A stretch of 64,000 nucleotides of DNA from a virus (IMGVR_UViG_3300035520_000484:98993-162992), one strand, 5' to 3'. Counted from the stretch's first letter, positions 18,514-62,030 are shown. Notes: generated from the sequence alone by a model not told the origin. Numbers and translations: made by a program.

Positions 18514-19065
18514 TTAAGCGTTTTCGATACCAAATACAAGATAAGTACCAACACGAGAACTCTTAGAAGGAGTATACTTAGCAGTAGCAACTACAGCCTG
18601 GCCTTCAACACACTTCTTATCCATTACCAAGTGAGCATTGCCACGATAAGAACCTTCAGTATAAAGAGTCTTAATAGCTGCCTTTGCATCAGCCTTAGTT
18701 GAATCAGTTTCAGAAATAACCTTACCAGTTTCATCATCAACCCAACGATAAACAGTCTTATACTTACGAGCGCCCTGTTCATTCTTGAGGTCGCCAATTA
18801 CATAGGGACGTTCACGAGTGTCAGCAACAGCAGATTCAATAGTAATTGAGAAGCCAACGCCAGGAAGATTCTTAGATTTCTTAGCAAGATAATTCAGCAT
18901 AAATTCCTTAGTATCAGAATCAGTCCAAGCACCTGTATGTGCCTTACGAGCATTACGATATGCTTGAGTTGCATCACCCTGAATACCAAACGGTGCAGAT
19001 TCAAGAGCTTCTTCCTTAGTTGCACCAGTTACTTCCATACGCTTAAAATTCATAATTTTTTCCAT
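18514..19065 (-). CDS. Hypothetical protein. Compositionally distinct (GC-richer codons), with its own promoter and terminator; likely a highly expressed early protein.
   Basis: Intact 183-aa ORF. Flanked by 217 nt of upstream non-coding DNA carrying a Bacteroides-type promoter, and by a strong terminator. Confidence 0.5.
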   Translation of the reverse strand: MEKIMNFKRMEVTGATKEEALESAPFGIQGDATQAYRNARKAHTGAWTDSDTKEFMLNYLAKKSKNLPGVGFSITIESAVADTRERPYVIGDLKNEQGARKYKTVYRWVDDETGKVISETDSTKADAKAAIKTLYTEGSYRGNAHLVMDKKCVEGQAVVATAKYTPSKSSRVGTYLVFGIENA

Positions 19066-49300: not shown

Positions 49301-50812
49301 AGGGTTTTATAATGCTAAAATTGCAACAAATGCAAATGCTATGTATAAAGCAAAGCATATCTTAGCAGATTTAACTTTCAGTTCTTGATTATCACCTACT
49401 AAATCTTCGATGATAGAATCAATGACGGAATGTATTGTACTTACTATTAAACCAAGAAATAGTAAGACAATACACACCTTCATTATATAGAATATTACCA
49501 CAGCCATAATAATGTGAAGAACATCACTCCTGCCAATATAGCAGGAGCAATGTAATATACATTACGAGATTTCCAATGTTTCATTTCAGTTGAGAATTTA
49601 CATAATCTGCATACGCTTTAAGAAATTCATCAATTCCTAGATAATATGCAACACCATACTTCTTAGCACGTTGTACAAAACATTTCCATGTTAAGTACTC
49701 GCCGATAATCGCTTCCTTGTTTTCAGGACAAGCGAAGTAACGGGAAAAGTTACAGTGCAACTGATCCCAGAGAGATGAGTGAATACCAAAGGCTTCACAT
49801 AAACCTTCATATTCTCTATGTAGTATTTCTTTATTCATAATTAATTTGGGTTTGTGTTTTACACCTAAAACTCTCATGCACATCGGCAAAGTTAGTAATA
49901 TCATGAATACTTTATCACTAACATGAGAGAAACTGGTGCCCTCAACATCTTGGGAAGTTATTGAGTTTTTTAATTTGCTCGTCTTTCCGAGCTGCTAACT
50001 ATCACATTGTATCATTAATACAGGAAAACCTATTCACATACGGTTTATTACTAAGGAATGTGGTACCCCAACCTGTTTTAAACACTAATGACCCCAATAC
50101 GCAGAAATAGTATAGCCAGTTCTTACTACTGCGAGAGTGGTATTGAGACCTTAGATTGATTTAACTTGGATTTCAAAAATATACCAATCATCTCCACCTT
50201 TATGAAAAGCTATATGTTCTTTAGCTTCTTCAAGAGTATTGTAAATACGAACGAGGTTGTCATTGTGGCATACCATATATCCAGATTTGAGTTCTGATGT
50301 TTTCATTGTTTTGTTGTTTTTTGGGTTATACTTCTGTTTCGTCGCAATTTTCAGCGACTCATCAGGTGTCTAATGACACGACAGAACTTAACTACTTTCA
50401 CAAGCAATTAAGTGTATAATTATTCCAAATCATGACCTCCTTAATAAAGGAGGTTTCGTCCTAGTCTCATCAGATGATATTTTAAGGTCTCCTAGGCTGA
50501 CCATAGAAATTTTCTATAATAAGAAAATTTTTAACTTATACGAATAAGTGAATAAATGTGCATACCTATATAGTCCTCGAATGACTGAGGAATTTTATAG
50601 AATGTACATTTGGGAATTAAAGGTGGGTGGTGGGTATAGACCCCCTTAATCGAAGATCCAGCCTATCACCAACCACCTTTTACCAACAATACGAAGCAAC
50701 CAATACCCAACTTTGCCTAACCAGCTATCAGGCAATACTTGAGTATGGTAAAGATTCCCATCATCATCACGAAGAAGGGAATCTTTAATCATAGTTGCTC
50801 TACAACACCGCA

Positions 50813-51340
50813 TTAGCGGCGTCTGTTATTACTCGGAGTCTCCTCTACAATATCCAAAGTGAGAATATTGTAGACTTTTGTCTCATCGACCTTACCAAAG
50901 GCAAAACCTTTGACAGGTGTCACCCTGGACACCTTGATAGTCTTACCCTTAAGACGGCTCATACCCTTCTCAACGGTACCTTCCTTACGGAACTCCTCAG
51001 TGGCTGAACCAGAGGTAACCACACGATTACCTGTAAGCTCCAACAGACCATTAACTTCACGAACCTCAGATGTAGACTTCGTGAAAGTTGACGGGAAGAA
51101 CTTCTTCACAGCTCCAAGAGAGGTGTTGACGAAGATGTATTCTGCCGAGTTTACTCGATCTCCAGACTTGATGTGCGTCTCATACACATCATACTCAGAC
51201 GGGATCTCGAAGGTCTCACCTTCAACGAAGCCAGGATTGTCGAGACTACGAATGGCCTTAGAGAAGCCAGCTACCTTGGTATCACCACCTTTGGTTGCAC
51301 GTTCTACTTCGATTGCCATAGCTGTTGCCATTTCCGACAT
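50813..51340 (-). CDS. Hypothetical protein (GC-rich island).
   Basis: 175-aa ORF. Its protein-like composition is favoured over the S/T/P/R-rich antisense ORF 50910-51356. Confidence 0.45.
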   Translation of the reverse strand: MSEMATAMAIEVERATKGGDTKVAGFSKAIRSLDNPGFVEGETFEIPSEYDVYETHIKSGDRVNSAEYIFVNTSLGAVKKFFPSTFTKSTSEVREVNGLLELTGNRVVTSGSATEEFRKEGTVEKGMSRLKGKTIKVSRVTPVKGFAFGKVDETKVYNILTLDIVEETPSNNRRR

Positions 51341-51585
51341 GATATTGTACGGTTAACCTATACACCATAAGGTTGTAAAATGAGTGCTATACACTCAACA
51401 ATAATCCGCGAAATTAACTAATATGTATACCTCGCTCGCGGAAATACGAAGTATACATATGGAGAATCTGAACATATGTCAGACCACCATTCGAATCTAT
51501 GGCTATACACATGGCTGGGTTTACTCCCGAAGGGAGTTTTTAATATTTGTTAACGTTCCGTTAACATTCAATTCCTATAGCCACA

Positions 51586-51632
51586 CAAAAAAAATATCCA
51601 ATTATCGCAACTTGGAATTACGATAATTGGAT
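51586..51632 (-). terminator. Strong rho-independent terminator after gene 51642-51929.
   Basis: 12-bp perfect stem ATCCAATTATCG / CGATAATTGGAT followed on the minus strand by TTTTTTTT. Confidence 0.75.
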
Positions 51633-51641
51633 AGATTTGTT

Positions 51642-51929
51642 TTATTGAGGGTAAATAGCGTTACCTTCTCCGTCTGTCATAAATGGAGAAAACACGTTTG
51701 AAGTTTCTTCGGGGTGAAGTGCTAACTTACTAATGAAGTCCCACGTTTTACGCAAGACTTCATCAGTTACTTTCTGTCGGTCAAAATAACCGACACTCTT
51801 TCCGTTTTTGTAGGTGAGTAGTTTCTCGATTGGCTTTAATAGCTCGTTGGTGAGTGCTATGCGGTCGATTGTAGAAAGTTCTACATTTAAGCCACAAATA
51901 GCTTCGCGGGTGATTTCGGTTGCTTTCAT
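51642..51929 (-). CDS. Hypothetical protein (GC-rich island).
   Basis: 95-aa ORF with an 8-bp inverted repeat (cccacgat...atcgtggg) upstream and a terminator downstream. Confidence 0.45.
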   Translation of the reverse strand: MKATEITREAICGLNVELSTIDRIALTNELLKPIEKLLTYKNGKSVGYFDRQKVTDEVLRKTWDFISKLALHPEETSNVFSPFMTDGEGNAIYPQ

Positions 51930-52116
51930 TTCTGTTTTGTTTTGTTGGGGTTAATGGATACGAGAAAAACTGCTCCCACGATATTAAATAATAAATCGTG
52001 GGGCAGTGGTGGGGTGCTAACTACTTAGAAAGTACCCAATCTTGAAATTGTTCAACGGTTAACACTGTACCGTTGATTTCTATTAATTCTTTCATAATAG
52101 ATTATTTAAGGGTGAA

Positions 52117-52167
52117 ACATTTAGTTTTTTAAAAACGCTAACAACACAATATAATAAATATAAAGTG
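52117..52167 (-). terminator. Rho-independent terminator after gene 52186-52887.
   Basis: 9-bp stem ACGCTAACA / TGTTAGCGT followed by a T-run on the minus strand. Confidence 0.6.
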
Positions 52168-52185
52168 CTGTTAGCGTATTTCCTA

Positions 52186-52887
52186 TTAGATTAATTCATA
52201 ATCTGAATAGGTAGACGGGTAGAACGTTAATCCCTTTGTGTCGGTGTCGTACTTTGTGCTTAGACAAGAGTGCGTTACCACCTTGATAGTCCTACACTCG
52301 CTGTAGAGCTTTTCAAACAATTTGTCAAGCTCGAATTGCTTAACAAATTCGTTTTTTCCGTTGATGCATTCTGCTGCAAGTTCGCGTACTTTGGCAACAA
52401 AACTGCCTTCTAACTGGGTAGTCTTGCTTTCGCTGAGCCATATGCGCTTTGTAACAAGTGATTTAAGGCTCATTGAATGTATGCTCCCGTTGGCACGTTG
52501 CCAATGTATGGCAATGTATTCGTGCCCTTTGTAGGAGTCATGGCGTTCGTTTGACGGCTTTTCAACGATTGTAAGTATTTCACCGTCGTTTAAACCTTGA
52601 TTACCGCTAAAAGCGTTGGCGCGAAGATTAGTATCGCGGTCGTTTGCGGCGTTGGTTACAGTTGCACTTTCGGCAACATTAGCCGTTTTTGTGGGTTCGG
52701 CTTTAACCCTGTTGTTTCTGGAATTTCCCATAAAGCAAAAAGATTTGGAATAATGCCTAAAATCCGTAGGCGCGGTATCGGAAATAAGCGGAGCCGATGC
52801 GCAACTACACCCAACAGGGTACAGTCGATAGACTGTATCACTCTTGCCTTGGCTGAGTTTACCTTTAAGACCCCAGGGGGGTCGCAA
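52186..52887 (-). CDS. Hypothetical protein (GC-rich island). The true start may be the internal Met (MGNSRNN...).
   Basis: 233-aa ORF with GC-rich codons. Confidence 0.4.
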   Translation of the reverse strand: MRPPWGLKGKLSQGKSDTVYRLYPVGCSCASAPLISDTAPTDFRHYSKSFCFMGNSRNNRVKAEPTKTANVAESATVTNAANDRDTNLRANAFSGNQGLNDGEILTIVEKPSNERHDSYKGHEYIAIHWQRANGSIHSMSLKSLVTKRIWLSESKTTQLEGSFVAKVRELAAECINGKNEFVKQFELDKLFEKLYSECRTIKVVTHSCLSTKYDTDTKGLTFYPSTYSDYELI

Positions 52888-53049
52888 AAGGTACCTGTAC
52901 CCTCCCCCTCCTAACTCACAAAATTTTTTTCATCTAGAAAATTTTTCAATTTGAAATTGATTTCCAATTACTATGGGGAGGGGGTTAATTATATTAGATA
53001 GGAATTTACTATAACTCCTTGAAAATCAGACACTTATAAAGATTTTTAT

Positions 53050-53115
53050 TTTCTACAGCGCAATAATATTTTCTGTAGGACAATAATATTTTTTGTAGAG
53101 CAATACTATTTTGCT
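53050..53115 (+). repeat. Three tandem roughly 22-bp iterons upstream of the RepL-like gene (putative replication origin).
   Basis: ttctacagcgcaataatatttt / ctgtaggacaataatatttttt / gtagagcaatactattttgc. Followed by an AT-rich 12-bp inverted repeat (aaatattttattt...aaataaaatatt). Confidence 0.6.
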
Positions 53116-53180: not shown

Positions 53181-53618
53181 ATGTATCAGCAAACTAATAC
53201 TCGTGAAATTGTAGATTGTGAAACAGGTGAAGTTAAAATAGTTGAGACTTCTAAAGTATTCACTGCAAAAGTAAGTTCAGATTCCTTTTATATGACATTT
53301 GTAGATTATCTAAGTCCTATCTTTCAATTGAAATCGGATGCTGCTAAAACTTTATTAGTATGGTTATGCAAACACGCTGACTTTAATACTGGAGTTGTAT
53401 CTATTTCTCCTGCCGATAGAAAACAGATATGCATAGAATTGAATATTACTAATTCAACTATCAGTAACAACTTAAAAAAGCTGGTAGAATTAAAACTCAT
53501 TTCCGGAAATGGAGGAAGATATTTAATTAATCCCCAAGTCTTCTGGAAGGGGGATCTTAAAGAAAGAACTAAACTACTTAAAGATAAAGAGATTCAAATA
53601 ACATTCTCTATAGATTAA
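53181..53618 (+). CDS. repL: RepL-like plasmid/phage replication initiation protein.
   Basis: Architecture and motifs resemble firmicute RepL: VDCETGEVKIVE..., central LLVWLCKHADFNTGVVSIS, wHTH ICIELNITNSTISNNLKKLVELKLISG, and the ending GGRYLINPQVFWKGD. Iterons lie immediately upstream. Confidence 0.6.
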   Translation: MYQQTNTREIVDCETGEVKIVETSKVFTAKVSSDSFYMTFVDYLSPIFQLKSDAAKTLLVWLCKHADFNTGVVSISPADRKQICIELNITNSTISNNLKKLVELKLISGNGGRYLINPQVFWKGDLKERTKLLKDKEIQITFSID

Positions 53619-54117: not shown

Positions 54118-54191
54118 TGCCCAATAGTATAAAGGTTTAATTACGACGCACTCTAAATGCGAAAATAACAGTTCGAGTCTGTTTTGGGCGA
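54118..54191 (+). tRNA. Amber suppressor tRNA (anticodon CUA), reading UAG.
   Basis: Acceptor TGCCCAA / TTGGGCG. D-arm GTA-TAAAGGTTTAAT-TAC. Anticodon stem ACGCA / TGCGA with loop CTCTAAA (C32 U33 C34 U35 A36 A37 A38). T-arm AACAG-TTCGAGT-CTGTT. Discriminator A. Preceded by the hairpin AGTGGGA-atct-TTCCCACT. Confidence 0.8.
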
Positions 54192-54193
54192 CT

Positions 54194-54475
54194 ATGAACA
54201 TATCTTTTATTTATAATAGAAAACTTTATCAACCTAAGAATCCAGAAAAGAAATTAAAGCAATTAGGAATTACTTGGGATGATGTAAAAATTATTAATAA
54301 CAAATCTAATGAAATTAAAGAAGAATATGAAGATCCAAACAGATTATACTATTTTATAAATCCGAAAACTGGATGGTCTATAACTTCTATAAATCCAGTA
54401 TGTAAATATGATGATTATGAACAATGTACTAAAGAAACTTTAGAAACTTACTGGTCTCAAAACAGGAAAGTTTGA
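54194..54475 (+). CDS. Hypothetical protein.
   Basis: Intact 93-aa ORF immediately after the suppressor tRNA. Confidence 0.35.
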   Translation: MNISFIYNRKLYQPKNPEKKLKQLGITWDDVKIINNKSNEIKEEYEDPNRLYYFINPKTGWSITSINPVCKYDDYEQCTKETLETYWSQNRKV

Positions 54476-54649
54476 TAATGATAAGAATAGAGTTTATAAT
54501 ATGTGTCAAATGTCTATTCTAATGTTAGAAGGAATCTGGAATGAAATAGAAGAGCTAGGACTTAAAGATGAACAAATGGTACTCGATTGGCTTGACCATA
54601 TAAATGAAATATCTGTAAGAAATTAAATTTTTATTATGTTATATAGCAA

Positions 54650-54690
54650 GAAACCCGACATGGAAATGATTCCGTGCCGGGTTTTATTAT
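54650..54690. terminator. Bidirectional hairpin terminator at the convergence of the plus-strand module and the minus-strand late operon.
   Basis: aaaCCCGaCAtggaaatgattccgTGcCGGGtttt. T-runs on both strands. Confidence 0.55.
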
Positions 54691-55449
54691 TTAATAATGT
54701 TTAGCAGGTACTGGAGCACCTTGATATTGAGTAAACTAAAATCTTGAAGGACCATATGAAAGATTACCAGTGTCTGATAAAGGAGCTAAAGTAGCAGCTG
54801 CCGCATCAGAAGCTCTTTCATCAATACTCTTACTTAAACTACTAGCTTGAGAAGTAGCGTAGCTAAAAGGTGCAGTAGGAAATCCTGCATATCTCTAATA
54901 AGCTCCAAATGTAGGACTAGTTGAATATCCGTAATGTCCTGAAAGACTAGGAGTTTGAATAGTTCTATATGAACTAAGACTAGGTGTAGTTATTTCAGGA
55001 AGTGTTGAATTATCAAAAGCAGGTTCAGAAACATCTGAAGTTGTTACTTCATTAGGAGTAGATGATTTAACAGTAGATGACGTAACAGATTTACTAGTAG
55101 AGATACGCTATCTAGGCTTTAATCTAGTATTAGCAGTAACATCATGAGTTTTTAAATATGTGTCATTTGCAATTTTATTATCTAGTTCTTCATCTGCTGC
55201 TGTATATGTATAATCATCAAACTATTCATCACCTTTAATAACATCTCCTGCTTTAGGAGTTCCTTTAAATAATTTAGTACTTTTAGGAGTTACCCATTCA
55301 TCAGGAACTTCAATTACTTGTCCTATTTTTAATTTAACACTAGGTGTATGGTTAAGCTCTACTAATTTATTGTATTGCCCCCCCCTACCTGTTAATGCTT
55401 TGGCAATACCCCAATAGGTATCGCCTTTTTTAATTATGTACTTTGCCAT
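54691..55449 (-). CDS. LysM-domain protein with a Ser/Thr-rich C-terminal region. Four in-frame TAG codons.
   Basis: N-terminal AKYIIKKGDTYWGIAKAL...YNKLVELN...LKIGQVIEVP is a LysM domain. Reading continues through TAG at 55222 to TAA at 54691. Confidence 0.6.
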
Positions 55450-55562
55450 TTTGTTTTAATTTATTTTAATTTATTTAATTTATTTTACCACCATATTTCT
55501 TCATGTGTATAAAAGGACATAGCCTAATTGTTAATCCTCTTATTTTATTTGTTCTTAAAGTT

Positions 55563-55935
55563 TCAATAGCCTAAAGTATATCTTATATTAGGTATTCTTT
55601 CGGTTATTGGTTCAATGTTAAAATAATCCACAATAGAAGTTCCGTTCTCAGGAGATTCAAATATCATATGAGACGCATCTCTACCATATGCATGAGGCAC
55701 CTTAAGTTTTTCAAGATAGCTATTAGTATTAAATAAAGACACGGAGTTTAAATTTTTAAACATGCCGTCATTCCCTGTATGCATGCCATTAGCATTTATT
55801 GTAATATTTGACGAAAATCTAGGAAATCTCTAACTCCACCATGTTTCTATAGGGCCTTTAGGATTTATGGTCTTGGGAGTATACAAAGCGGTTTTGTTTC
55901 CATACTTCTTAGACCATATTGGATTAAATACAACA
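55563..55935 (-). CDS. Hypothetical late protein (one in-frame TAG). Start overlaps the upstream stop (ATGA).
   Basis: Open with TAG as sense: MNVGNPDVVFNPIWSKKYGNKTALYTPK...W(TAG)RFPRF...MHTGNDGMFKNLNS.... Ends TGA. Confidence 0.5.
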
Positions 55936-57016
55936 TCTGGATTACCTACATTCATATAATACATTCCGTTTTTCCTTCGAAAGTTTTTCCTTGGATAACA
56001 GAAAACGCATTTATTAAATCTTCTTTTGATATATTATTGGGAAGGTTCATCCTTCTTAAGAATGTGTTAGATTGTTTCATTAAGTCTTTAACATAATCTT
56101 CAAGATTTATTATATTCCCATTTCTATAATCATTTGCTATTTGCTGTAAGTACTACGGGGATTCTTTAGCTATATTATACAATACTTTATTATCTTTAAT
56201 AGTCTAAAGGTCTTGAAGATATTGATCGGATGCATTTCTACCCTATTCTAATCCGTCTTTTATATTTTGTAAAGTTGATTCGTCATTAAAATAAAAATCT
56301 CCTTTAGGAGTAATTCTATACTCATTTTCTAAAGCCTATAATTGAGGATTAAGTTCTCTTATTTGGTTTAATGATATATTAACAGGTTCTCCATTTCTAT
56401 TATATTTTTGAGAAAATTGGCGCACTAAAGAAGGATCTTTTATATATTTAAGAAACCTGCCTCTAATATAAGGATTTCTTAATCCTCTCCTTCCTTGTTT
56501 GTTCATATTTTTAGCTAACCACCATACATCTTTAAAATTACGAGAAGTTCTAGCAAGAGCACTTACTCCTTTACCTAAATACTACATACCTTTAGTTGTA
56601 ACATAATCTTCTAAACCTGTGTATGGGGCAACTAAATAGAATAAATCATTACTCTATTCTAAAGGAGCCTCTGATAAGAACGCTCTTTTTCTTGTATTAT
56701 TACCCCATATATCTGTATAGTTAAATCCATTAGCATCCTAAGTAAGTAATGTAGGTAATTGCCAAGGAACAGTGTTAGGATTAACTCCTGTTGTTACTGT
56801 TCCTGCATTTCTTGATTCTGGCTAAGTAATATGAACTATATTTCCATTTACATCTGTATAAATCTCATAATCAGGATTACTATCAAGAACTTCCTATACT
56901 GTTTTTACATTACCATTTGTATCTACAATTTCAGTTATATTTCCCCAATCAGATATATCTTTGACTTTTCTTCTAAAAAGACCGACATTTTTAGTATCAG
57001 CATTATCAAGTGTCAT
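55932..57016 (-). CDS. Hypothetical late/structural protein (about 12 in-frame TAG codons).
   Basis: Open with TAG as sense for about 361 codons: MTLDNADTKNVGLFRRKVKDISDWGN...ECII-stop. Start overlaps the end of the upstream gene. Confidence 0.55.
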
Positions 57017-57758
57017 ATTGTCTAGAATTTTTAAATCGTTGTATTACAGAACCTTGTTTCGCCATAGGAAGAATGTCAGAGGAATCATTCTAAGCTACTT
57101 CATTAAACAATTTTATTAAATCTTTATCTTCAAACATATCTAATTTAAATAGGTTGATTGCATCTCTATGAGAATCTAGAAATTTCTAATCAACAATTTG
57201 TTCTGGTTTCATTTTAGTTGCGTACCTAAATTCCATCATTCGAGAATATATTTCATTAGGATCTAACAAATATTCTGCATTATCACTACTCCATCCATCT
57301 TTTGCTTTAGCTGTCTATTCGATTTCACCAATAGCATATATTTGAGGATTAGCTCTCATAGCATGGGTATATTCATGAAGTTCTGGATACGTATACTTCT
57401 CTTCTTTAAATATAGGAGGTCTTATATGAACTTCATGCTTACTAGGACTGTAATATCCTAAAGCTAATCCACCATCCCAATCGTGGAGTGTATCATTATA
57501 AAGTTTAGCAGATGCAGCATTTTCTATTTGACTATAGAAATTCTTATTTACATAAGTTCTTCTATTAAAAGAATTTGCTCTAGCCCATTCTTTCTACGGA
57601 ATGTTATAAGTATCACGAGAAGTAAAATGAAATATTCCTCCTAAATTGTTATATAACTAAGCTCTTCTGTGATTTAACCAATTAGCTAGCCATTCAATAG
57701 TTTGACTATCACTTTTAGGAGGTTTATAATTAGAAATAGGTGTAGTATAATCTGACAT
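57006..57758 (-). CDS. Putative zincin-like metallopeptidase (HExxH), late gene with six in-frame TAG codons.
   Basis: MSDYTTPISNYKPP...YTYPELHEYTHAMRANPQ... contains HEYTH. Ends TGA. Start overlaps the TAA of the upstream gene (TAATG). Confidence 0.5.
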
Positions 57759-59274
57759 TATTGTTTTTGTTGATTATTTAATAAATACATTCCTCCTGAA
57801 AATATTCCTACTTTCATCATAGCTTCTTTTGCTTTAGAAACTATTTCATTTAATTTAGGATACTTTTTAGCTAACTCTGTTAATTCTTCAGAAGATGCGA
57901 ATAATAAGTTATCAGTATCTATTCCTGTAATATTAGAAATTTCTTTAATTATAGATGAAGTATAAGGCTAGTCTATTTCCATTTTTAAAATTTCTCCTGA
58001 AGGAGTATTTTTGATAACTTCATCTAGTTCTTTTCCAAAAATCAGATTTAGGGATTCCTGCTTTTCCGCTTCAGTAAGATTAGAAGGTCTTTGATAGAAA
58101 GAATAGTTAGCTTTAGGAGTATTAGATACTACTCTTCTAAATCCATAATTAGGTTCCCATATATAAGCAGAAGTATTTTCAAGATTTAGCTAATCTTCAG
58201 AGAATGGGATCCTTCTTCCTGACATATCTCTCTTAGCTACCCGTGCATTTTTTGTAGCAAATTGTAAAGGTTCTCTAGTTACTAAAAGTCCTGGATGACT
58301 AGCATCAATTCCATTAACTATATCACCATCATACCATAAACCTCCCTATTTAAACATTGGATTGTCAAAGGTTTTACCAAAATCGAAAGTTCCAACATTC
58401 GTTTCTACTAAATTAACATTTTCAGTATTAGGATAATCTACTCTAACCTTCCTAGAATTTAAAAAATCTTTAACTATATTTGTAGAACCCTATCTATAAT
58501 TTAAATTCGGGTCATTTATTTCCACATCACCTGAACGATATCTCATCTTAGGAGCTAAGTCTGGAGTTTCTACCTCTCCTAATGGCATTCTACTAAGTTT
58601 ATATCCAAGTATAGATGGCTTGACAGCATTGTAAGAAATCTGTCCAACTCTATTTAGAAATGGAAGACTACTACCTCCAACTACAGAACCTATAAGCTAT
58701 CCTAAATATGGAGAATCATACTATTCCCCAATGTATCTACCACCTTCTCCTCCAATCCATGATCCTATTAATGGTTTTACTCCAATATTTCCAAATAACC
58801 CCAGCAGTCCAAGATCAATAACACCAGATATAGCAGCATTATTAAGTACCTACTAATATCCAGGTATATTATAAGCTCTCATTAATTGCCCCTGTCCACC
58901 TCTAAATAAACTACCAATGAAAGGTACATAGTCTGTAGAATGTGACATAATTTTATCTCCATTTTCTATATTATTTTTTATCTATTCCTTTTCTCTCATA
59001 TATTCTCCAGCCTATTCTTGAGATTGCTTCTAAGCATCTGTTCTATTATCCTAAATTACTTTTCCAGTAGACTACAACTATTTTTTAGGAACCTCTACAT
59101 ATCCATTTTCATATGGAACTCGAGTTACAGATGCATTATGTTTAGCTTCTGATTCTTTAGCTATGTTATATGCAAGTAATCTCTACTCAATATTTATAGG
59201 AGCGGTAGTATTATCAGATAATTCTTTTTGTACGAAAGAGTTTTTAATAATTGGTTTTCCCATATATATTATTT
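57758..59274 (-). CDS. Hypothetical late/structural protein, about 505 aa, Gly-rich hydrophobic segment. About 17 in-frame TAG codons.
   Basis: Open with TAG as sense: MGKPIIKNSFVQKELSDNT...GVIDLGLLGLFGNIGVKPLIGSWIGGEGGRYIG...LLNNQQKQ-stop. The ORF track shows only tiny fragments here. Confidence 0.55.
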
Positions 59275-59279
59275 GCTAT

Positions 59280-60045
59280 ATCTTTTTCTAAAATTTTCAA
59301 TAACATTAATTATTCTACCGCCATATTTATAAGACATATTATTTGCGTACTGATGGATAGTTTCTACATATCCTTTTTCTCCAGAATTAATTTGATTTAA
59401 AGGGATTTTGAACATGTTGATAAGAATATCTTCATCTATATTAGTATCCCATTTATTATAATCAGATTGATGCTTTTTATATTGATATTTAGCATCTTCT
59501 GTTACCCTATCAACATCCCATCCAGATTTTTCCCAACCTTTTAATAATGCAATATAAGGACTATCATCAAAGTATCTCCAATTACTGGTTATAAGAGAAG
59601 GCCCGATACTATCTGGCGAATCCGCATAAATCCAATGGCGAGGAGTACTCTTTCCTAAATAATATCTATTAGATCTGCCAGGATCTGTAGCTCCCGAAGA
59701 CTCTTTAATAGCTATAGCTAATCCCTATTTAGGAGATATTCCAGTAGCTTGTGAAGCCTGTACAATTTTATCAAATACCTCTATAGGTATGTTATAAGTT
59801 CCTCTGCCTTTAACAGTAACAGGTTTAGTTTTACCAGAAAGTTGAATAAGCTGTTTTTCTTCATTATTTATTCTATGAACATATGTAGTAACCGCTTTAT
59901 CAAAAGTTTTTTTAAATTCTGGAGAAGATTTATATTTCTAATATGTGGAAAATTTTATAAAAGGAAATAAAATATACTTTTTTAATCCACCTCCTGAAAG
60001 CCATATTTCATCATTTGATTCATTATGAATATATACTTGTTCCAT
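59280..60045 (-). CDS. Late protein, possibly lysozyme-like (ES motif). One in-frame TAG.
   Basis: MEQVYIHNESNDEIWLSGG...IVQASQATGISPK(TAG)GLAIAIKESSGATDPGRSNRYYLG... Start overlaps the upstream TAA (TAATG). Confidence 0.45.
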
Positions 60046-62030
60046 TATTTAAGTTTTCCTCCTAATTTAAATATTTTTTCAGAGCTTGCGTATCTTTCAG
60101 GAACGTTTACTTCATACCAAGTATTACCCTTTGGATCAGTTACTATAGAAGGTTCTGTTCCAAATAATTTCTTAAACTATTTAGGAAAATCACTATACTT
60201 TTTCAATATAGTTTTGTGAGCATCAGTATAATCTTCTATTTTTGGAACTTCATCCATCATTTGTCGACTACGCATTGTATAGTGATCAAAGATATTCTCC
60301 ATAACATCAGCAGTTCTTTGATCTCTTACATAATTTAGCATGTACTTATCTAAGAGTGTTGTTAAGTCCCCGTCAGTATATGGATCTTTTAATAACGATC
60401 TATAATAATTAACTCGATCTTTGTTTGTAGGATTAGTCTATAAAAATTCTATAAATTTTGTTATCCTAGGATCATTTGCGTATTTAGGATTCTCTTTGAC
60501 TAGATTTAATAAATCAGAAAGGTATCCATGATTATTTACCACATCTTTAAATTTACTTGCTCTCTCATTTAAAAATTCGTACTATTTTTTCTATCCAGGT
60601 GCCCATTGTGGAATTTCCTGAGGTTCATATCCTTCTACAGTAATAGCAGTTTCACGAGTAGGGTAGCGCATTGTTTTATACCCACGTGTGGAAGCGAAAT
60701 CAAGATTTTCTTGTAAGTGTCTGTCCAAATAATTTTTAGCCATATACTCACTAATAATATTTTTTTCTTGATCTTTAGGAGTATTTTTATTAAACCATTG
60801 TGCCCAATCACTTTGTGTTTCTGGAACATATAATACACCAGGCTCATCATATGTAGTAAAGAATCTAGAATGACCAATAGGAGCGCTGTTAAAATGATTA
60901 GTACTACCTCCAACAGAGGGATTATTAAAAGTAAGACTGTATATTTCTTTTACACTTGGATCAGTAGGAAGTTTACCATTTTTTGATGCATCATACCCTC
61001 CTCCATATCGTGTTTTGTGAATTATTTCTTGTCGTGATGGTGCCTTATATCCTAATTCTTTCATTCCATATGCAGCCCATGTATCTTCAAGACCAATATC
61101 TTCATACGAAGGAATTAATTCTGATACTTCCTTTCGTAAATCATTATAATCTATAAACTTATCAGCAGTATGATTTGCTAAAACTTGAGAAATCAATTCT
61201 TTATCTACTTTTGAAACTTCTGGCTTATTTAAATACTATTGTAACTATTTAATAGAAATAGTCCCTTGTTTAGATAATTGTTTTTCTAACTAAGATCCTC
61301 TTGCTAATGATTTAGGCATATAAGCTCCAGGAATTTCCTATATTTTATAAGGTTCTGGAGTAAAATACGGATTAGTTTGACCTTTTGTAAATAATGTTGT
61401 GGGTGTAAAACCATTTGCAACATATTCACCAGTCAAAGGAGTATTATGTAAAACATTACCCATATAACCATAGCCAGTATATTTACCTCCTGATACTCCA
61501 CGTAATGCTTTAGCAAACCAATTAGTATAGTCACTACTTGAACGTGTCATAGGAATTGCTGATAACGCAGTCATTACACCATTATACAAAGAGGGATCTT
61601 TTACAAACTCTTTACCATTATCATATAAGAAATATCCAGAAGTTCCAAGATTAGCAGTTGTGCCTAACCAAGCAGGGGCACCTATCAAATCTAAATAAGT
61701 AGAAGGAGTCATTAATGCTCCGACATAAGGAGCTGTAACAGCACCTAATCCAGCAGCAGCTGCACCTAATGCTTGAGTACCAAAGAAGTTCATCCAACTG
61801 TTTTGATTAAACTAGTTATGCACTCTTTCATCAGCTGCGGCTTTCTCTGTTATTCTAGCGTCAGATTTTTCTAATTGATTGGAAGAGTTTGGAGTAACAT
61901 CAGAACTCGCATATTCTATTCCTCCTGTCTATTCACCAGTATTAGGATTGTGTAAAACATAAGGCTCAACAGGCCTACCTGACAATTTTCCAACAAAAGA
62001 GCCAAGTCCTACTTTTTCTTCTTCACCCAT
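60045..62030 (-). CDS. Large late protein (about 660 aa, 9 in-frame TAG codons). N-terminal Gly/Ala-rich hydrophobic domain paralogous to gene 36613-38577.
   Basis: Continuous frame from ATG 62030 through track ORFs 61338-61793 and 60591-61196 once TAG is read as sense. [64 protein letters not shown] aligns to the paralogue. Confidence 0.7.

What the first reader, a model, noticed from the sequence alone, without database searches (positions are those of the whole stretch)
49905..52915. 3 kb GC-rich island (about 45% GC in a 28% GC genome) encoding three unknown proteins, each with its own strong terminator.
Abrupt compositional shift, different codon usage and long antisense ORFs. Genes 50813-51340, 51642-51929 and 52186-52887 have no recognisable motifs. 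Each is followed by a canonical hairpin plus U-run (51586-51632 and 52117-52167 are the clearest). The region sits between the late operon / RepL module and the middle genes. It is likely a recent acquisition from the host or another element. It could be a moron, anti-defence or host-modulation cassette.
Basis: seen in the sequence. Interest (0 to 1): 0.6.

Follow-up and report, generated by a model that had tools for sequence, protein, structure and literature searches.

The report
Codon-biased early genes beside phage ribozymes
The "GC-rich island" is mostly a conserved module of a large crAss-like gut phage, not a recently imported cassette: small genes whose unusual codon usage is shared by distant relatives, followed by hammerhead ribozymes and a conserved RNA absent from Rfam.

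Summary
Observation partly confirmed. The region is 40.5% GC against 29.9%, but as two peaks (50600-51420 and 52186-52920, about 45%), not one 3 kb block.

The excess is mainly at third codon positions: GC3 is 0.41-0.48 against 0.158±0.039 in 54 background ORFs.

The 175-aa gene is real. It belongs to an unannotated family ("A", 156 cluster representatives). In all five relatives with context, it or its tandem paralogue is also GC-elevated in an AT-rich genome.

The 181-aa (not 233-aa) and 95-aa genes are ORFans with a different, C-ending codon dialect. The 181-aa gene sits where relatives carry an A paralogue, so replacement or acquisition stays open for those two.

Two of the three genes have strong terminators. 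The 175-aa gene runs instead into two Rfam-significant hammerhead ribozymes (50503-50331).

A pseudoknotted RNA (49971-49853) occurs once per contig in at least 119 crAss-like contigs, has covariation support, and matches no Rfam family.

Protein function is unproven. Weak fold matches point to OB-fold nucleic-acid binders.

The parts
53047..53106 (.). Three tandem 20-nt iteron-like repeats in the divergent intergenic region between the 181-aa gene (-) and RepL (+, 53181-53618)
   Evidence: the repeat finder family D1, spacing 20/20, 75-100% identity; RepL Pfam PF05732, E 3e-7
52732..52925 (-). GC-rich (49%) untranslated leader of the 181-aa gene. It contains the hairpin GACCCC-CCU-GGGGUC (52883-52869) and AACTCAGCCA (52859-52850).
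   Evidence: GC 0.49; fold z -2.5; gene callers start at ATG 52731. The covariance model of the relatives' B leader does not match it. No homologues, so structure is unverified.
52186..52731 (-). 181-aa ORFan gene in the first slot next to RepL; GC3 0.467, C-ending codon dialect
   Evidence: Only itself among 5.8 billion proteins; no Pfam, PHROG or phage tblastn hit; not similar to family A or B; codon data
52130..52177 (-). Intrinsic terminator after the 181-aa gene: 13-bp outer stem (GCUAACAGCAC...) plus U5
   Evidence: Fold -24.9 kcal/mol, z -5.66, 0 of 200 shuffles as stable
52021..52095 (-). 24-codon mini-ORF (MKELIEINGTVLTVEQFQDWVLSK); coding status unverified
   Evidence: Read from the sequence; no comparative data
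51964..52007 (-). Terminator-like hairpin (CUGCCCCACGAU...AUCGUGGGAGCAG) plus U5
   Evidence: Fold -21 kcal/mol, z -6.18
51642..51929 (-). 95-aa ORFan gene; GC3 0.406, same C-ending dialect as the 181-aa gene
   Evidence: No Pfam hit; weak PHROG 7929 hit, E 0.005; no phage or IMG/VR relatives; codon data
51587..51633 (-). Intrinsic terminator after the 95-aa gene: 18-bp stem plus U8
   Evidence: Terminator scan; fold z -7.40
51341..51510 (-). 170-nt conserved leader of the 175-aa gene. It holds three of the window's four GTGTATAG copies and is preceded by the hairpin ACUCCC-UUC-GGGAGU (51537-51523) and AACCCAGCCA (51521-51512).
   Evidence: About 96% identical to L007, while the CDS differs at 19% of sites and 33% of third positions; homology starts exactly at GTGTATAGCC. 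Motif count. Fold z -5.2 including the upstream terminator. No compensatory pairs available.
50813..51340 (-). 175-aa gene, member of unannotated family A. GC3 0.483. Avoids codons read by the phage's own tRNAs. The true start may be the second ATG at 51331.
   Evidence: Differences from L007 by codon position 27/15/54; 10 synonymous and 0 non-synonymous changes against L006; 156 family representatives; codon data; M4 nearly invariant in the family alignment
50646..50792 (-). Conserved small ORF (48 aa; 55 aa from the upstream ATG that overlaps the 175-aa gene's stop)
   Evidence: 35-37% identity to the ORF directly after the A gene in L012, L014 and L015; invariant D4 S5 L7 G12 P21 D22 G29 W31
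50429..50503 (-). RAGATH-1-type hammerhead ribozyme (type I); predicted cleavage after GUC at about 50434/50433
   Evidence: Rfam RF03152, 76.7 bits against gathering 56.3, E 3e-11, full length, intact CUGAUGA...GAAA core
50331..50387 (-). Type III hammerhead ribozyme; predicted cleavage after GUC at about 50380/50379
   Evidence: Rfam RF00008, 49.8 bits against gathering 48.5, E 6e-8, full length. L014 has a homologous core with compensatory stem II changes at the syntenic place.
50151..50306 (-). 51-aa ORF between the hammerheads and the two-block RNA; ordinary composition (GC3 0.23)
   Evidence: ORF list; called by JGI; GC by codon position
49853..49971 (-). Two-block pseudoknotted RNA. Block 1 is A6-CUCAAUAACUUCCCAAGAUGUUGAGGGCACCAGUUUCU, block 2 is AGUUUUAGGUGUAAAACACA, and a variable hairpin lies between them. 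It sits in the 5' UTR of the next gene (probable ATG at 49835).
   Evidence: Exact 26-mer in at least 119 IMG/VR contigs, once per contig; 93 unique copies with inserts of 16-205 nt; covariation in four helices; no Rfam match at E<=10

Best explanation
The region is not one imported cassette. It is the start of a conserved leftward (minus-strand) gene-and-RNA module, divergent from the RepL/iteron replication junction, in a large TAG-recoding crAss-like phage (source contig about 163 kb). It runs from about 52925 to 49853.

LAYOUT. A string of small genes, each with a long leader. The first two end in strong intrinsic terminators. The third unit (175-aa gene plus a conserved 48-aa ORF) has no terminator. 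It runs into two hammerhead ribozymes that should cut the read-through transcript, releasing its 3' end from the downstream 51-aa ORF and a conserved pseudoknotted RNA.

WHY IT IS GC-RICH. The signal is synonymous codon usage. For the 175-aa gene (family A) and its paralogues this is a long-standing, selected property shared by distant relatives, not a mark of recent transfer.

MOST LIKELY CAUSE (inferred). These genes are translated at high level from the host tRNA pool, independently of the phage's own A/U-decoding tRNAs, so they keep G/C- and T-ending preferred codons in a genome that is otherwise extremely AT-rich at third positions.

MOST LIKELY FUNCTION OF FAMILIES A AND B (weakly inferred, about 0.3). 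An abundant OB-fold-like nucleic-acid-binding protein of the replication or early programme. The 170-nt conserved leader would then be a candidate operator for translational control, as in T4 gp32.

THE OTHER TWO GENES. The 181-aa and 95-aa genes are lineage-specific occupants of variable slots. The 181-aa gene replaces, or is an unrecognisably diverged form of, the A paralogue that relatives carry there.

SHOWN: composition, coding status, family membership, synteny, conserved GC3, terminators, ribozyme matches, RNA covariation. INFERRED: expression level and timing, nucleic-acid binding, autoregulation, ribozyme processing in vivo.
For: COMPOSITION AND CODON POSITIONS.

CODING AND SELECTION. 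Codon-position differences from L007 are 27/15/54. Against L006 there are 10 synonymous and 0 non-synonymous changes.

FAMILY A. 156 representatives at E<=1e-3 and 74 at E<=1e-10.

RELATIVES. Five phage contigs carry the homologue. In L012-L015 it is GC-elevated; in L135 the elevation is carried mainly by its paralogue.

TANDEM PARALOGUE IN EVERY RELATIVE. hhalign of B against A gives probability 68%, E 4.7e-5. The L135 201-aa protein against A gives 97.6%, E 2.7e-12. Paralogue GC3 is 0.46-0.62.

SHARED LAYOUT. The same Rep-HTH, GC-rich leader, paralogues, then tRNAs arrangement appears in the relatives. The downstream small ORF is conserved. The order A, small ORF, hammerhead, small gene, two-block RNA is conserved in L014.

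AVOIDANCE OF PHAGE-tRNA CODONS IN THE A GENE. TTA 0/8, ATA 0/8 and AGA 1/11, against background fractions of 0.46, 0.27 and 0.45.

LEADER CONSERVATION. About 96% against 81% for the CDS. The relatives' B leader is a structured RNA with 10 of 41 pairs compensatory.

TERMINATORS. HAMMERHEADS.

Against: - No expression data. High or early expression is inferred from codon usage and position only.
- Host codon preferences were not measured, because no host genome was available.
- The 181-aa gene avoids the phage-tRNA codons less clearly (TTA 4/14, ATA 4/9) and uses a different dialect. One explanation may not cover all three genes.
- The A-gene leader has no covariation support.
- Contig ends do not coincide exactly with the predicted hammerhead cleavage sites.
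- In L135 the A homologue has GC3 of only 0.27, so the elevation is not uniform across the family.
Confidence: 0.55

Rival explanations
1. Partial horizontal acquisition. The 181-aa and 95-aa genes, with their leader and terminators, are a recently acquired or swapped-in unit (moron, anti-defence or host-takeover cargo) that displaced the family-A paralogue normally found next to the Rep gene. The 175-aa unit is ancestral.
For: Both genes are ORFans: the 181-aa protein matches only itself among 5.8 billion proteins, and neither has a phage or IMG/VR relative. They share a codon dialect and a CpG o/e of 1.3, distinct from the 175-aa gene (0.8) and the genome (0.57). Each has its own strong terminator. 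The slot holds a different, homologous gene and leader in all five relatives.
Against: No donor was found. GC3, size, position and the GC-rich leader mimic the paralogue it would replace, which also fits extreme divergence in place. hhalign aligns the same motif region (GE.l.I...EYI), though at only 2.7% probability. All contigs carrying them are about 100% identical, so their age cannot be judged.
Confidence: 0.3
2. The whole 3 kb region is a single recent acquisition from the host or another element.
For: The compositional shift is abrupt at both ends. GC of 44-47% resembles typical Bacteroidales genomes (my own knowledge, not tested).
Against: There are two separate peaks with different codon dialects and opposite GC skew. 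The 175-aa gene, its small downstream ORF, a hammerhead and the two-block RNA are syntenic in relatives at 36-44% protein identity, and the gene is GC-elevated there. No bacterial or plasmid-like gene is present.
Confidence: 0.05
3. Same conserved module, different protein function. Families A and B are early host-takeover, anti-defence or transcription-cofactor proteins rather than SSB-like binders, and the codon bias reflects a need for immediate translation on entry.
For: Their position is next to the divergent junction at the head of a leftward unit. crAss001 early genes include conserved proteins of unknown function (PMC10136315, read). No significant match to any SSB family exists. crAss-like phages usually encode a canonical SSB elsewhere (my own knowledge, not checked in this genome).
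Against: The only recurring theme in three independent fold searches is OB-fold nucleic-acid binders. I did not scan these proteins against a defence or anti-defence library, so that reading is untested.
Confidence: 0.25
4. The GC-rich patches are structured non-coding RNAs and the ORFs are artefacts of composition.
For: GC-rich islands in AT-rich genomes often mark structured RNAs. Long ORFs appear on both strands. The neighbourhood is rich in ribozymes.
Against: Substitutions in the 175-aa ORF follow codon positions (27/15/54, and 10 synonymous to 0 non-synonymous). A protein family of 156 clusters aligns full-length. The antisense ORFs are explained by the absence of TTA and CTA codons. Rfam finds nothing in the patches at E<=5. 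This rival is untested only for the 181-aa and 95-aa ORFs, which lack comparative data.
Confidence: 0.03

Closest known systems
Autoregulated abundant phage ssDNA-binding proteins (T4 gp32; filamentous-phage gene V / Pf3 SSB; phi29 p5; PRD1 P12; plasmid pCF10 PrgE)
   Same: Small proteins near the replication genes. The best, though weak, structural matches are to this group. A long, highly conserved leader precedes the gene, as with the gp32 translational operator (my own knowledge).
   Different: No sequence similarity. All structural scores are below significance and come from a model with pLDDT 56. There is no acidic C-terminal tail. Binding and autoregulation are untested. Two tandem paralogues per genome is unusual for SSBs.
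Ribozyme/RAGATH neighbourhoods of gut phages (hammerhead, hatchet, RAGATH-1/-7/-14; Weinberg et al. 2015, 2017, cited from my own knowledge; hatchet largely confined to Crassvirales per 10.64898/2026.03.07.710320)
   Same: Two Rfam-significant hammerheads lie here, one of the RAGATH-1 type. The corresponding region of Suoliviridae genomes cr53_1, cr60_1 and cr6_1 holds Hatchet, RAGATH-7 and RAGATH-14 on the same strand, next to the same two-block RNA.
   Different: The ribozyme class differs between lineages: hammerheads here and in L014, hatchets in Suoliviridae. The associated family A/B genes and the two-block RNA are not described in any source I could search.
Phage morons / horizontally acquired islands
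   Same: Compositional contrast with the genome, and autonomous units with their own terminators.
   Different: For the 175-aa unit, the gene, its neighbours and its composition are conserved across distant relatives. That is the opposite of a recent insertion. Only the 181-aa and 95-aa genes remain candidates.
Pseudoknotted self-cleaving ribozymes (twister, pistol, HDV-like) and pseudoknotted cis-regulatory leaders
   Same: The two-block RNA has near-invariant nucleotides, a hairpin loop pairing with adjacent 3' sequence, a long-range helix, and sites that tolerate inserts of 10-200 nt. It lies among known ribozymes. Its loop UCCCAAG...GAGGG recalls twister (from memory only).
   Different: No Rfam ribozyme or riboswitch model matches, even at E<=10 on 181 nt. 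The order of its helices fits none of the known classes as I recall them. Cleavage is untested.

Membership tests
Hammerhead ribozyme, type III (Rfam RF00008) | Covariance-model score at or above the curated gathering threshold over the full model | tested here: met
   50331-50387(-): 49.8 bits against 48.5, E 6e-8, model positions 1-54 of 54. The margin is narrow.
Hammerhead ribozyme, type III (Rfam RF00008) | Catalytic core CUGAUGA...GAAA with three flanking helices and an NUH cleavage triplet | tested here: met
   The alignment shows CUGAUGAG...CGAAAC, stems I-III and GUC before stem I
Hammerhead ribozyme, type III (Rfam RF00008) | Self-cleavage | not testable with these tools
   Needs in vitro transcription or 5'/3'-end mapping
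RAGATH-1 hammerhead (Rfam RF03152) | Covariance-model score above gathering, including the extra 5' hairpin | tested here: met
   50429-50503(-): 76.7 bits against 56.3, E 3e-11, model positions 1-77 of 77
Unannotated protein family A (this work) | Full-length HMM match to the family profile | tested here: met
   A profile of the 175-aa protein and P0002 recovers 156 representatives, mostly 150-180 aa and end to end. Motifs GD.FTIP, YI.V, FPSTFTK and GKK.KV are shared.
Family A/B superfamily: membership of the 181-aa protein | Detectable sequence or profile similarity to A or B | tested here: not met
   hhalign probability 2.7% against A and 0.65% against B; BLASTP against the L135 paralogue E 0.1. 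Its leader is not matched by the B-leader covariance model. It shares only position, size and GC3.
OB-fold ssDNA-binding proteins | Sequence match to an SSB family model | tested here: not met
   No Pfam, NCBIfam, PHROG or PDB-sequence hit for the protein or for any of 78 family members
OB-fold ssDNA-binding proteins | Significant structural similarity to an OB-fold SSB | tested here: inconclusive
OB-fold ssDNA-binding proteins | Cooperative ssDNA binding | not testable with these tools
   Needs purified protein
Recently acquired genomic island / moron | Absent from, or compositionally different in, related genomes | tested here: not met
   For the 175-aa gene, five relatives carry a homologue in the same layout. 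It is GC-elevated in L012-L015, and in L135 the tandem paralogue is. For the 181-aa and 95-aa genes no relative carries them, so the feature is met, but only in the weak sense of having no homologues.
Recently acquired genomic island / moron | Identifiable donor or donor-like composition | not tested
   The bacterial genome collection could not be scanned with the alignment, and no host genome was at hand
Intrinsic (Rho-independent) terminators | Stable GC-containing hairpin directly followed by a U-run on the transcribed strand | tested here: met
   52177-52130, 52007-51964 and 51633-51587, with z -5.7, -6.2 and -7.4. Not met after the 175-aa gene and small ORF (50555-50645).
Any Rfam family, for the two-block RNA | Covariance-model match | tested here: not met
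   Nothing at E<=5 on 3.9 kb; only noise (E 3-8) on 181 nt

The most novel reading that the evidence does not exclude
The low-coordinate edge of the 'island' carries an RNA class I could not find described. It is pseudoknotted and near-invariant. It occurs once per contig in at least 119 crAss-like contigs, always on the gene strand, next to hammerhead, hatchet or RAGATH RNAs. It may be a new self-cleaving ribozyme or a universal Crassvirales control element for RNA processing or translation. Together with the family A/B proteins and their conserved structured leaders, it would define a conserved RNA-centred early module in one of the most abundant groups of human gut viruses.
Probability: 0.25. 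Interest if true: 0.8.

Novelty: new variant of a known kind. Interest (0 to 1): 0.55.

Why it matters
A local GC spike in an AT-rich phage need not mean horizontal transfer. Here it marks genes whose synonymous codon usage has been held apart from the rest of the genome across deep divergence.

The finding identifies three things in crAss-like phages, among the most abundant human gut viruses, none of which matches an annotated family:
- A widespread protein superfamily (A/B) with no annotation.
- Two conserved leader elements. One is supported by covariation (the relatives' B leader). The other is supported only by sequence conservation.
- A single-copy pseudoknotted RNA that is missing from Rfam.

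It also gives a testable role for phage hammerhead ribozymes: defining the 3' end of an mRNA that has no terminator. If the codon bias reflects translation from host tRNAs independently of the phage's own tRNAs and amber suppressor, it ties codon dialect to the temporal programme of a recoding phage.

Tried and rejected
HOMOLOGY SEARCHES THAT FOUND NOTHING USEFUL
- Pfam and PHROG scans of the three proteins and their neighbours found only RepL.
- tblastn of all three proteins against 50,697 GenBank phages found no match.
- Pfam, NCBIfam, PHROGs and PDB on the 78-member family gave only scattered noise. The family-B profile against PDB found nothing.
- IMG/VR scans with RepL and with the 95-aa protein found no relatives.
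Bacterial genomes were therefore never searched.

IDEAS TESTED AND REJECTED
- The two GC-rich proteins as paralogues of each other: BLASTP is not significant.
- The syntenic ~200-aa Suoliviridae proteins (alignment A2) as homologues of the window's proteins: hhalign probability 0.2% or less.
- The 181-aa protein as a family-B member: rejected at sequence level and at leader level.
- AACCTAGCCA as a general promoter motif in this window: not enriched, 43 matches against 38 expected.
- The second GC bump (18514-19065) as a further paralogue: unrelated.
- Short contigs (L001-L006) as evidence of a separate replicon or of transcripts: all are collinear with the window. Their ends sit at AT-rich or repeat sequence and not exactly at cleavage sites. 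GC-biased, low-coverage assembly is the simpler reading.

LIMITED BY THE TOOLS
- The single-sequence structure of the 181-aa protein is unusable (pLDDT 41).
- The afdb50 fold library was unavailable.
- Covariation in the A-gene leader could not be tested: too few substitutions, and my L006 range covered only half of it.
- Literature searches on crAss-like ribozymes and structured RNAs turned up nothing on this module.

Full report
CONTEXT. The window comes from a crAss-like gut phage.
- The only DNA matches in GenBank phages are to Crassvirales.
- The proteins of this region occur on a 162,992-nt contig.
- An amber-suppressor tRNA (anticodon CTA) lies at 54118-54192. It is followed by 6 kb with no ORF of 90 aa or more in the standard code, so the late genes are probably TAG-recoded.
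- RepL (53181-53618, + strand; Pfam E 3e-7) diverges from the region in question, which is read on the minus strand.
- Three tandem 20-nt repeats lie between them.

THE OBSERVATION. The window is 29.9% GC, and the stated span is 40.5%. The profile shows two peaks of about 45% (50600-51420 and 52186-52920), separated by a stretch of 37%. The first 700 nt of the stated span are barely elevated.

The excess is mostly synonymous. GC3 is 0.483, 0.467 and 0.406 in the three genes, against 0.158±0.039 (maximum 0.289) in 54 background ORFs. The long antisense ORFs follow from this: the 175-aa gene has no TTA or CTA codons, which read as stops on the other strand.

Terminators are real after the 181-aa and 95-aa genes, and after a 24-codon mini-ORF. 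There is none after the 175-aa gene. The GC-richest stretch of all (52732-52925, 49%) is therefore an untranslated leader.

THE 175-AA GENE IS ANCIENT, NOT IMPORTED.
- It is coding. Against an 82%-identical relative (L007), differences fall 27/15/54 by codon position. Against a 98%-identical contig (L006), all 10 differences are synonymous third-position changes.
- A word-indexed search found only one relative. An exhaustive profile search found 156 cluster representatives of similar length. None has any annotation. I call this family A.
- Five phage contigs with flanking sequence carry a homologue at 27-44% identity.
- In L012-L015 the homologue is GC-elevated (0.40-0.48 against locus means of 0.29-0.36; GC3 0.31-0.48). 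In L135 it is only mildly raised (GC3 0.27).
- In all five, a second GC-rich gene of similar size lies upstream. It is a distant paralogue: family B against A gives hhalign probability 68%, E 4.7e-5, and the L135 201-aa protein against A gives 97.6%, E 2.7e-12. Its GC3 is 0.46-0.62.
- In L012 and L135 a divergent Rep-like helix-turn-helix gene of ordinary composition lies on the other side, as RepL does here.
- A small ORF directly after the A gene is conserved.

WHAT THE CODON BIAS SUGGESTS. The phage encodes tRNAs for TTA, AGA, ATA, CAA and TCT, and these codons dominate the background genes. The 175-aa gene almost completely avoids the first three (TTA 0/8, AGA 1/11, ATA 0/8). It prefers GGT, CGT, AAG, GAG and TTC.

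I infer selection for efficient translation from the host tRNA pool, that is, high and probably early expression. This is an inference. I have no expression data and no host codon table.

THE 181-AA AND 95-AA GENES DIFFER. They share a C-ending dialect (GCC, CGC, AGC, AAC, GAC; G3 0.12-0.14; CpG o/e 1.3, against 0.8 for the 175-aa gene and 0.57 for the window). They have no homologues in the collections searched.

The 181-aa gene sits in the slot that holds the A paralogue in relatives. It matches that paralogue in size, GC3 and in having a GC-rich leader. Yet neither the protein nor the leader is detectably related. Replacement by an acquired gene and extreme divergence in place both remain possible, and I rate acquisition at about 0.3.

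LEADERS. The 170 nt upstream of the 175-aa gene are about 96% identical to L007, while third codon positions differ at 33%. Homology begins exactly at GTGTATAGCC, just after an unrelated upstream gene in L007. The leader therefore travels with the gene and is under strong constraint. It holds three of the window's four GTGTATAG copies. Its fold cannot be tested, because there are too few substitutions.

The relatives' B leader is a separate element of about 170 nt, with 10 of 41 predicted pairs showing compensatory changes among four sequences.

RIBOZYMES. Two hammerheads follow the small ORF on the gene strand. One is of the RAGATH-1 type (76.7 bits against 56.3). The other is type III (49.8 against 48.5, a narrow margin). 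Both have intact cores.

L014 has a sub-threshold hammerhead at the syntenic position, with compensatory changes in stem II. No terminator precedes the window's hammerheads. They are therefore the likely means of forming the 3' end of this transcript and separating it from what follows. This is inferred, not shown.

THE TWO-BLOCK RNA. The only part of the region with DNA similarity to other phages is a short stretch at about 49919-49977. It proved to be one half of a bipartite element.
- In 93 unique copies a second invariant block follows after an insert of 16-205 nt.
- Covariation supports four helices. A long-range helix is 100% paired (27-82 as CG or TA; 28-81 as AT, GC or GT). A loop-to-3' pair is CG in 72 and TA in 16 of the 88 unique cores. 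The stem closing the insert is 84% paired, against about 40% in slid controls, with up to six pair types per position.
- The fourth helix gains two compensatory pairs from the diverged L014 copy (CACC/GGTG to CGGC/GCCG).
- G·U pairs occur only in the gene-strand orientation, which points to RNA rather than DNA.
- No Rfam model matches.
- In Suoliviridae genomes it lies in long unannotated gaps, together with Hatchet, RAGATH-7 and RAGATH-14.
- It sits about 25-45 nt upstream of the next start codon.
- Caveats: my search pattern fixed most of block 1, so only the partner positions are unbiased, and the copies are phylogenetically related.

FUNCTION OF FAMILY A. The AlphaFold model built from two sequences is weak (pLDDT 56).
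- BFVD gives two uncharacterised proteins of a single virus (E 1.6e-8 and 7.6e-4), which mirrors the A/B pair, and then a tail of phage SSBs.
- Foldseek against PDB gives PrgE first (E 0.015), then ribosomal OB-fold proteins.

The theme is consistent, but no single match to a characterised protein is significant. I put 'abundant OB-fold-like nucleic-acid binder, possibly autoregulated through its leader' at about 0.3.

VERDICT. The compositional anomaly is real but was misdescribed, and its main interpretation is wrong for the best-characterised gene. The region is a conserved, codon-biased early or replication-proximal module interleaved with ribozymes and conserved RNA elements that match no Rfam family. 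Two lineage-specific genes in it may be later arrivals.

Noticed in passing
window 54118-54192 (+) and 54475-60591: An amber-suppressor tRNA (anticodon CTA) is followed by about 6 kb with no ORF of 90 aa or more in the standard code. This fits TAG-recoded late genes, as known for some Crassvirales.
   Followed up: partly
window 18514-19065 (-): The only other spot in the window above 40% GC is again a single isolated small gene (183 aa). It has no Pfam or PHROG hit and is unrelated to family A, so isolated GC-elevated genes of about 180 aa recur in this genome.
   Followed up: partly
window 53047-53106: Three tandem 20-nt repeats (TATTTTCTACAGCGCAATAA-like) lie between RepL and the 181-aa gene. 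They could be iterons or an operator.
   Followed up: partly
L012 4325-4512, L013 4818-4990, L014 90-264, L015 4376-4552: A conserved structured leader RNA of about 170 nt lies upstream of family-B genes. It has 10 compensatory pairs of 41 and a probable pseudoknot (GCGUCC / GGACGU). It is not in Rfam and is absent from the window.
   Followed up: partly
window 52883-52869 and 51537-51523; L012, L014 and L015 B leaders: GC hairpins with a 3-nt loop (GACCCC-CCU-GGGGUC; ACUCCC-UUC-GGGAGU) lie just upstream of an AACYYAGCCA motif before the 181-aa and 175-aa genes. The relatives have equivalents (GAUCCC-CCU-GGGAUC, GACCC-CCU-GGGUC). They recall hairpin-form promoters of N4 virion RNA polymerase (my own knowledge, untested).
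   Followed up: no
L008 1191-2109, L010 454-582 and 2056-2269, L011 280-398: Hatchet ribozymes (four), RAGATH-14 and RAGATH-7 lie in unannotated gaps of Suoliviridae genomes cr53_1, cr60_1 and cr6_1, downstream of the two-block RNA on the same strand.
   Followed up: partly
L008 3105-3758, L009 2847-3443, L010 3204-3776, L011 3023-3712: In the Suoliviridae genomes the gene next to the divergent junction is a different family of about 200 aa (MLCYLQS..., with an acidic C-terminal tail). It is also mildly GC-elevated (0.34-0.41).
   Followed up: partly
L014 3525-3577 and 3843-4048: A sub-threshold type I hammerhead (E 0.11), and a diverged two-block RNA with an 83-nt insertion inside the P1 loop.
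   Followed up: partly
L001-L006 against the window (contig ends 53020/53007/52989 and 50339-50619): Independent metagenome contigs that carry the 175-aa gene are short (1.1-3.3 kb) and end near the edges of the GC-rich region. This is probably GC-biased coverage or repeat-induced assembly breaks, but transcript-derived assemblies cannot be excluded.
   Followed up: partly
L012 3970-4290 and 1762-2997: An 18-nt tandem repeat array lies next to a Rep-like gene. A GC-rich (0.41-0.50) 411-aa predicted lipoprotein gene lies beside it, and it is a better moron candidate than anything in the window.
   Followed up: no
L007 about 1240-1270: The Logan contig ends in Illumina adapter sequence (AGATCGGAAGAGCACGTCTGAACTCCAG), so its last 30 nt or so are not biological.
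   Followed up: yes
window 49980-50150 (-): A 170-nt stretch between the 51-aa ORF and the two-block RNA has no ORF and no Rfam match. It was not examined further.
   Followed up: no
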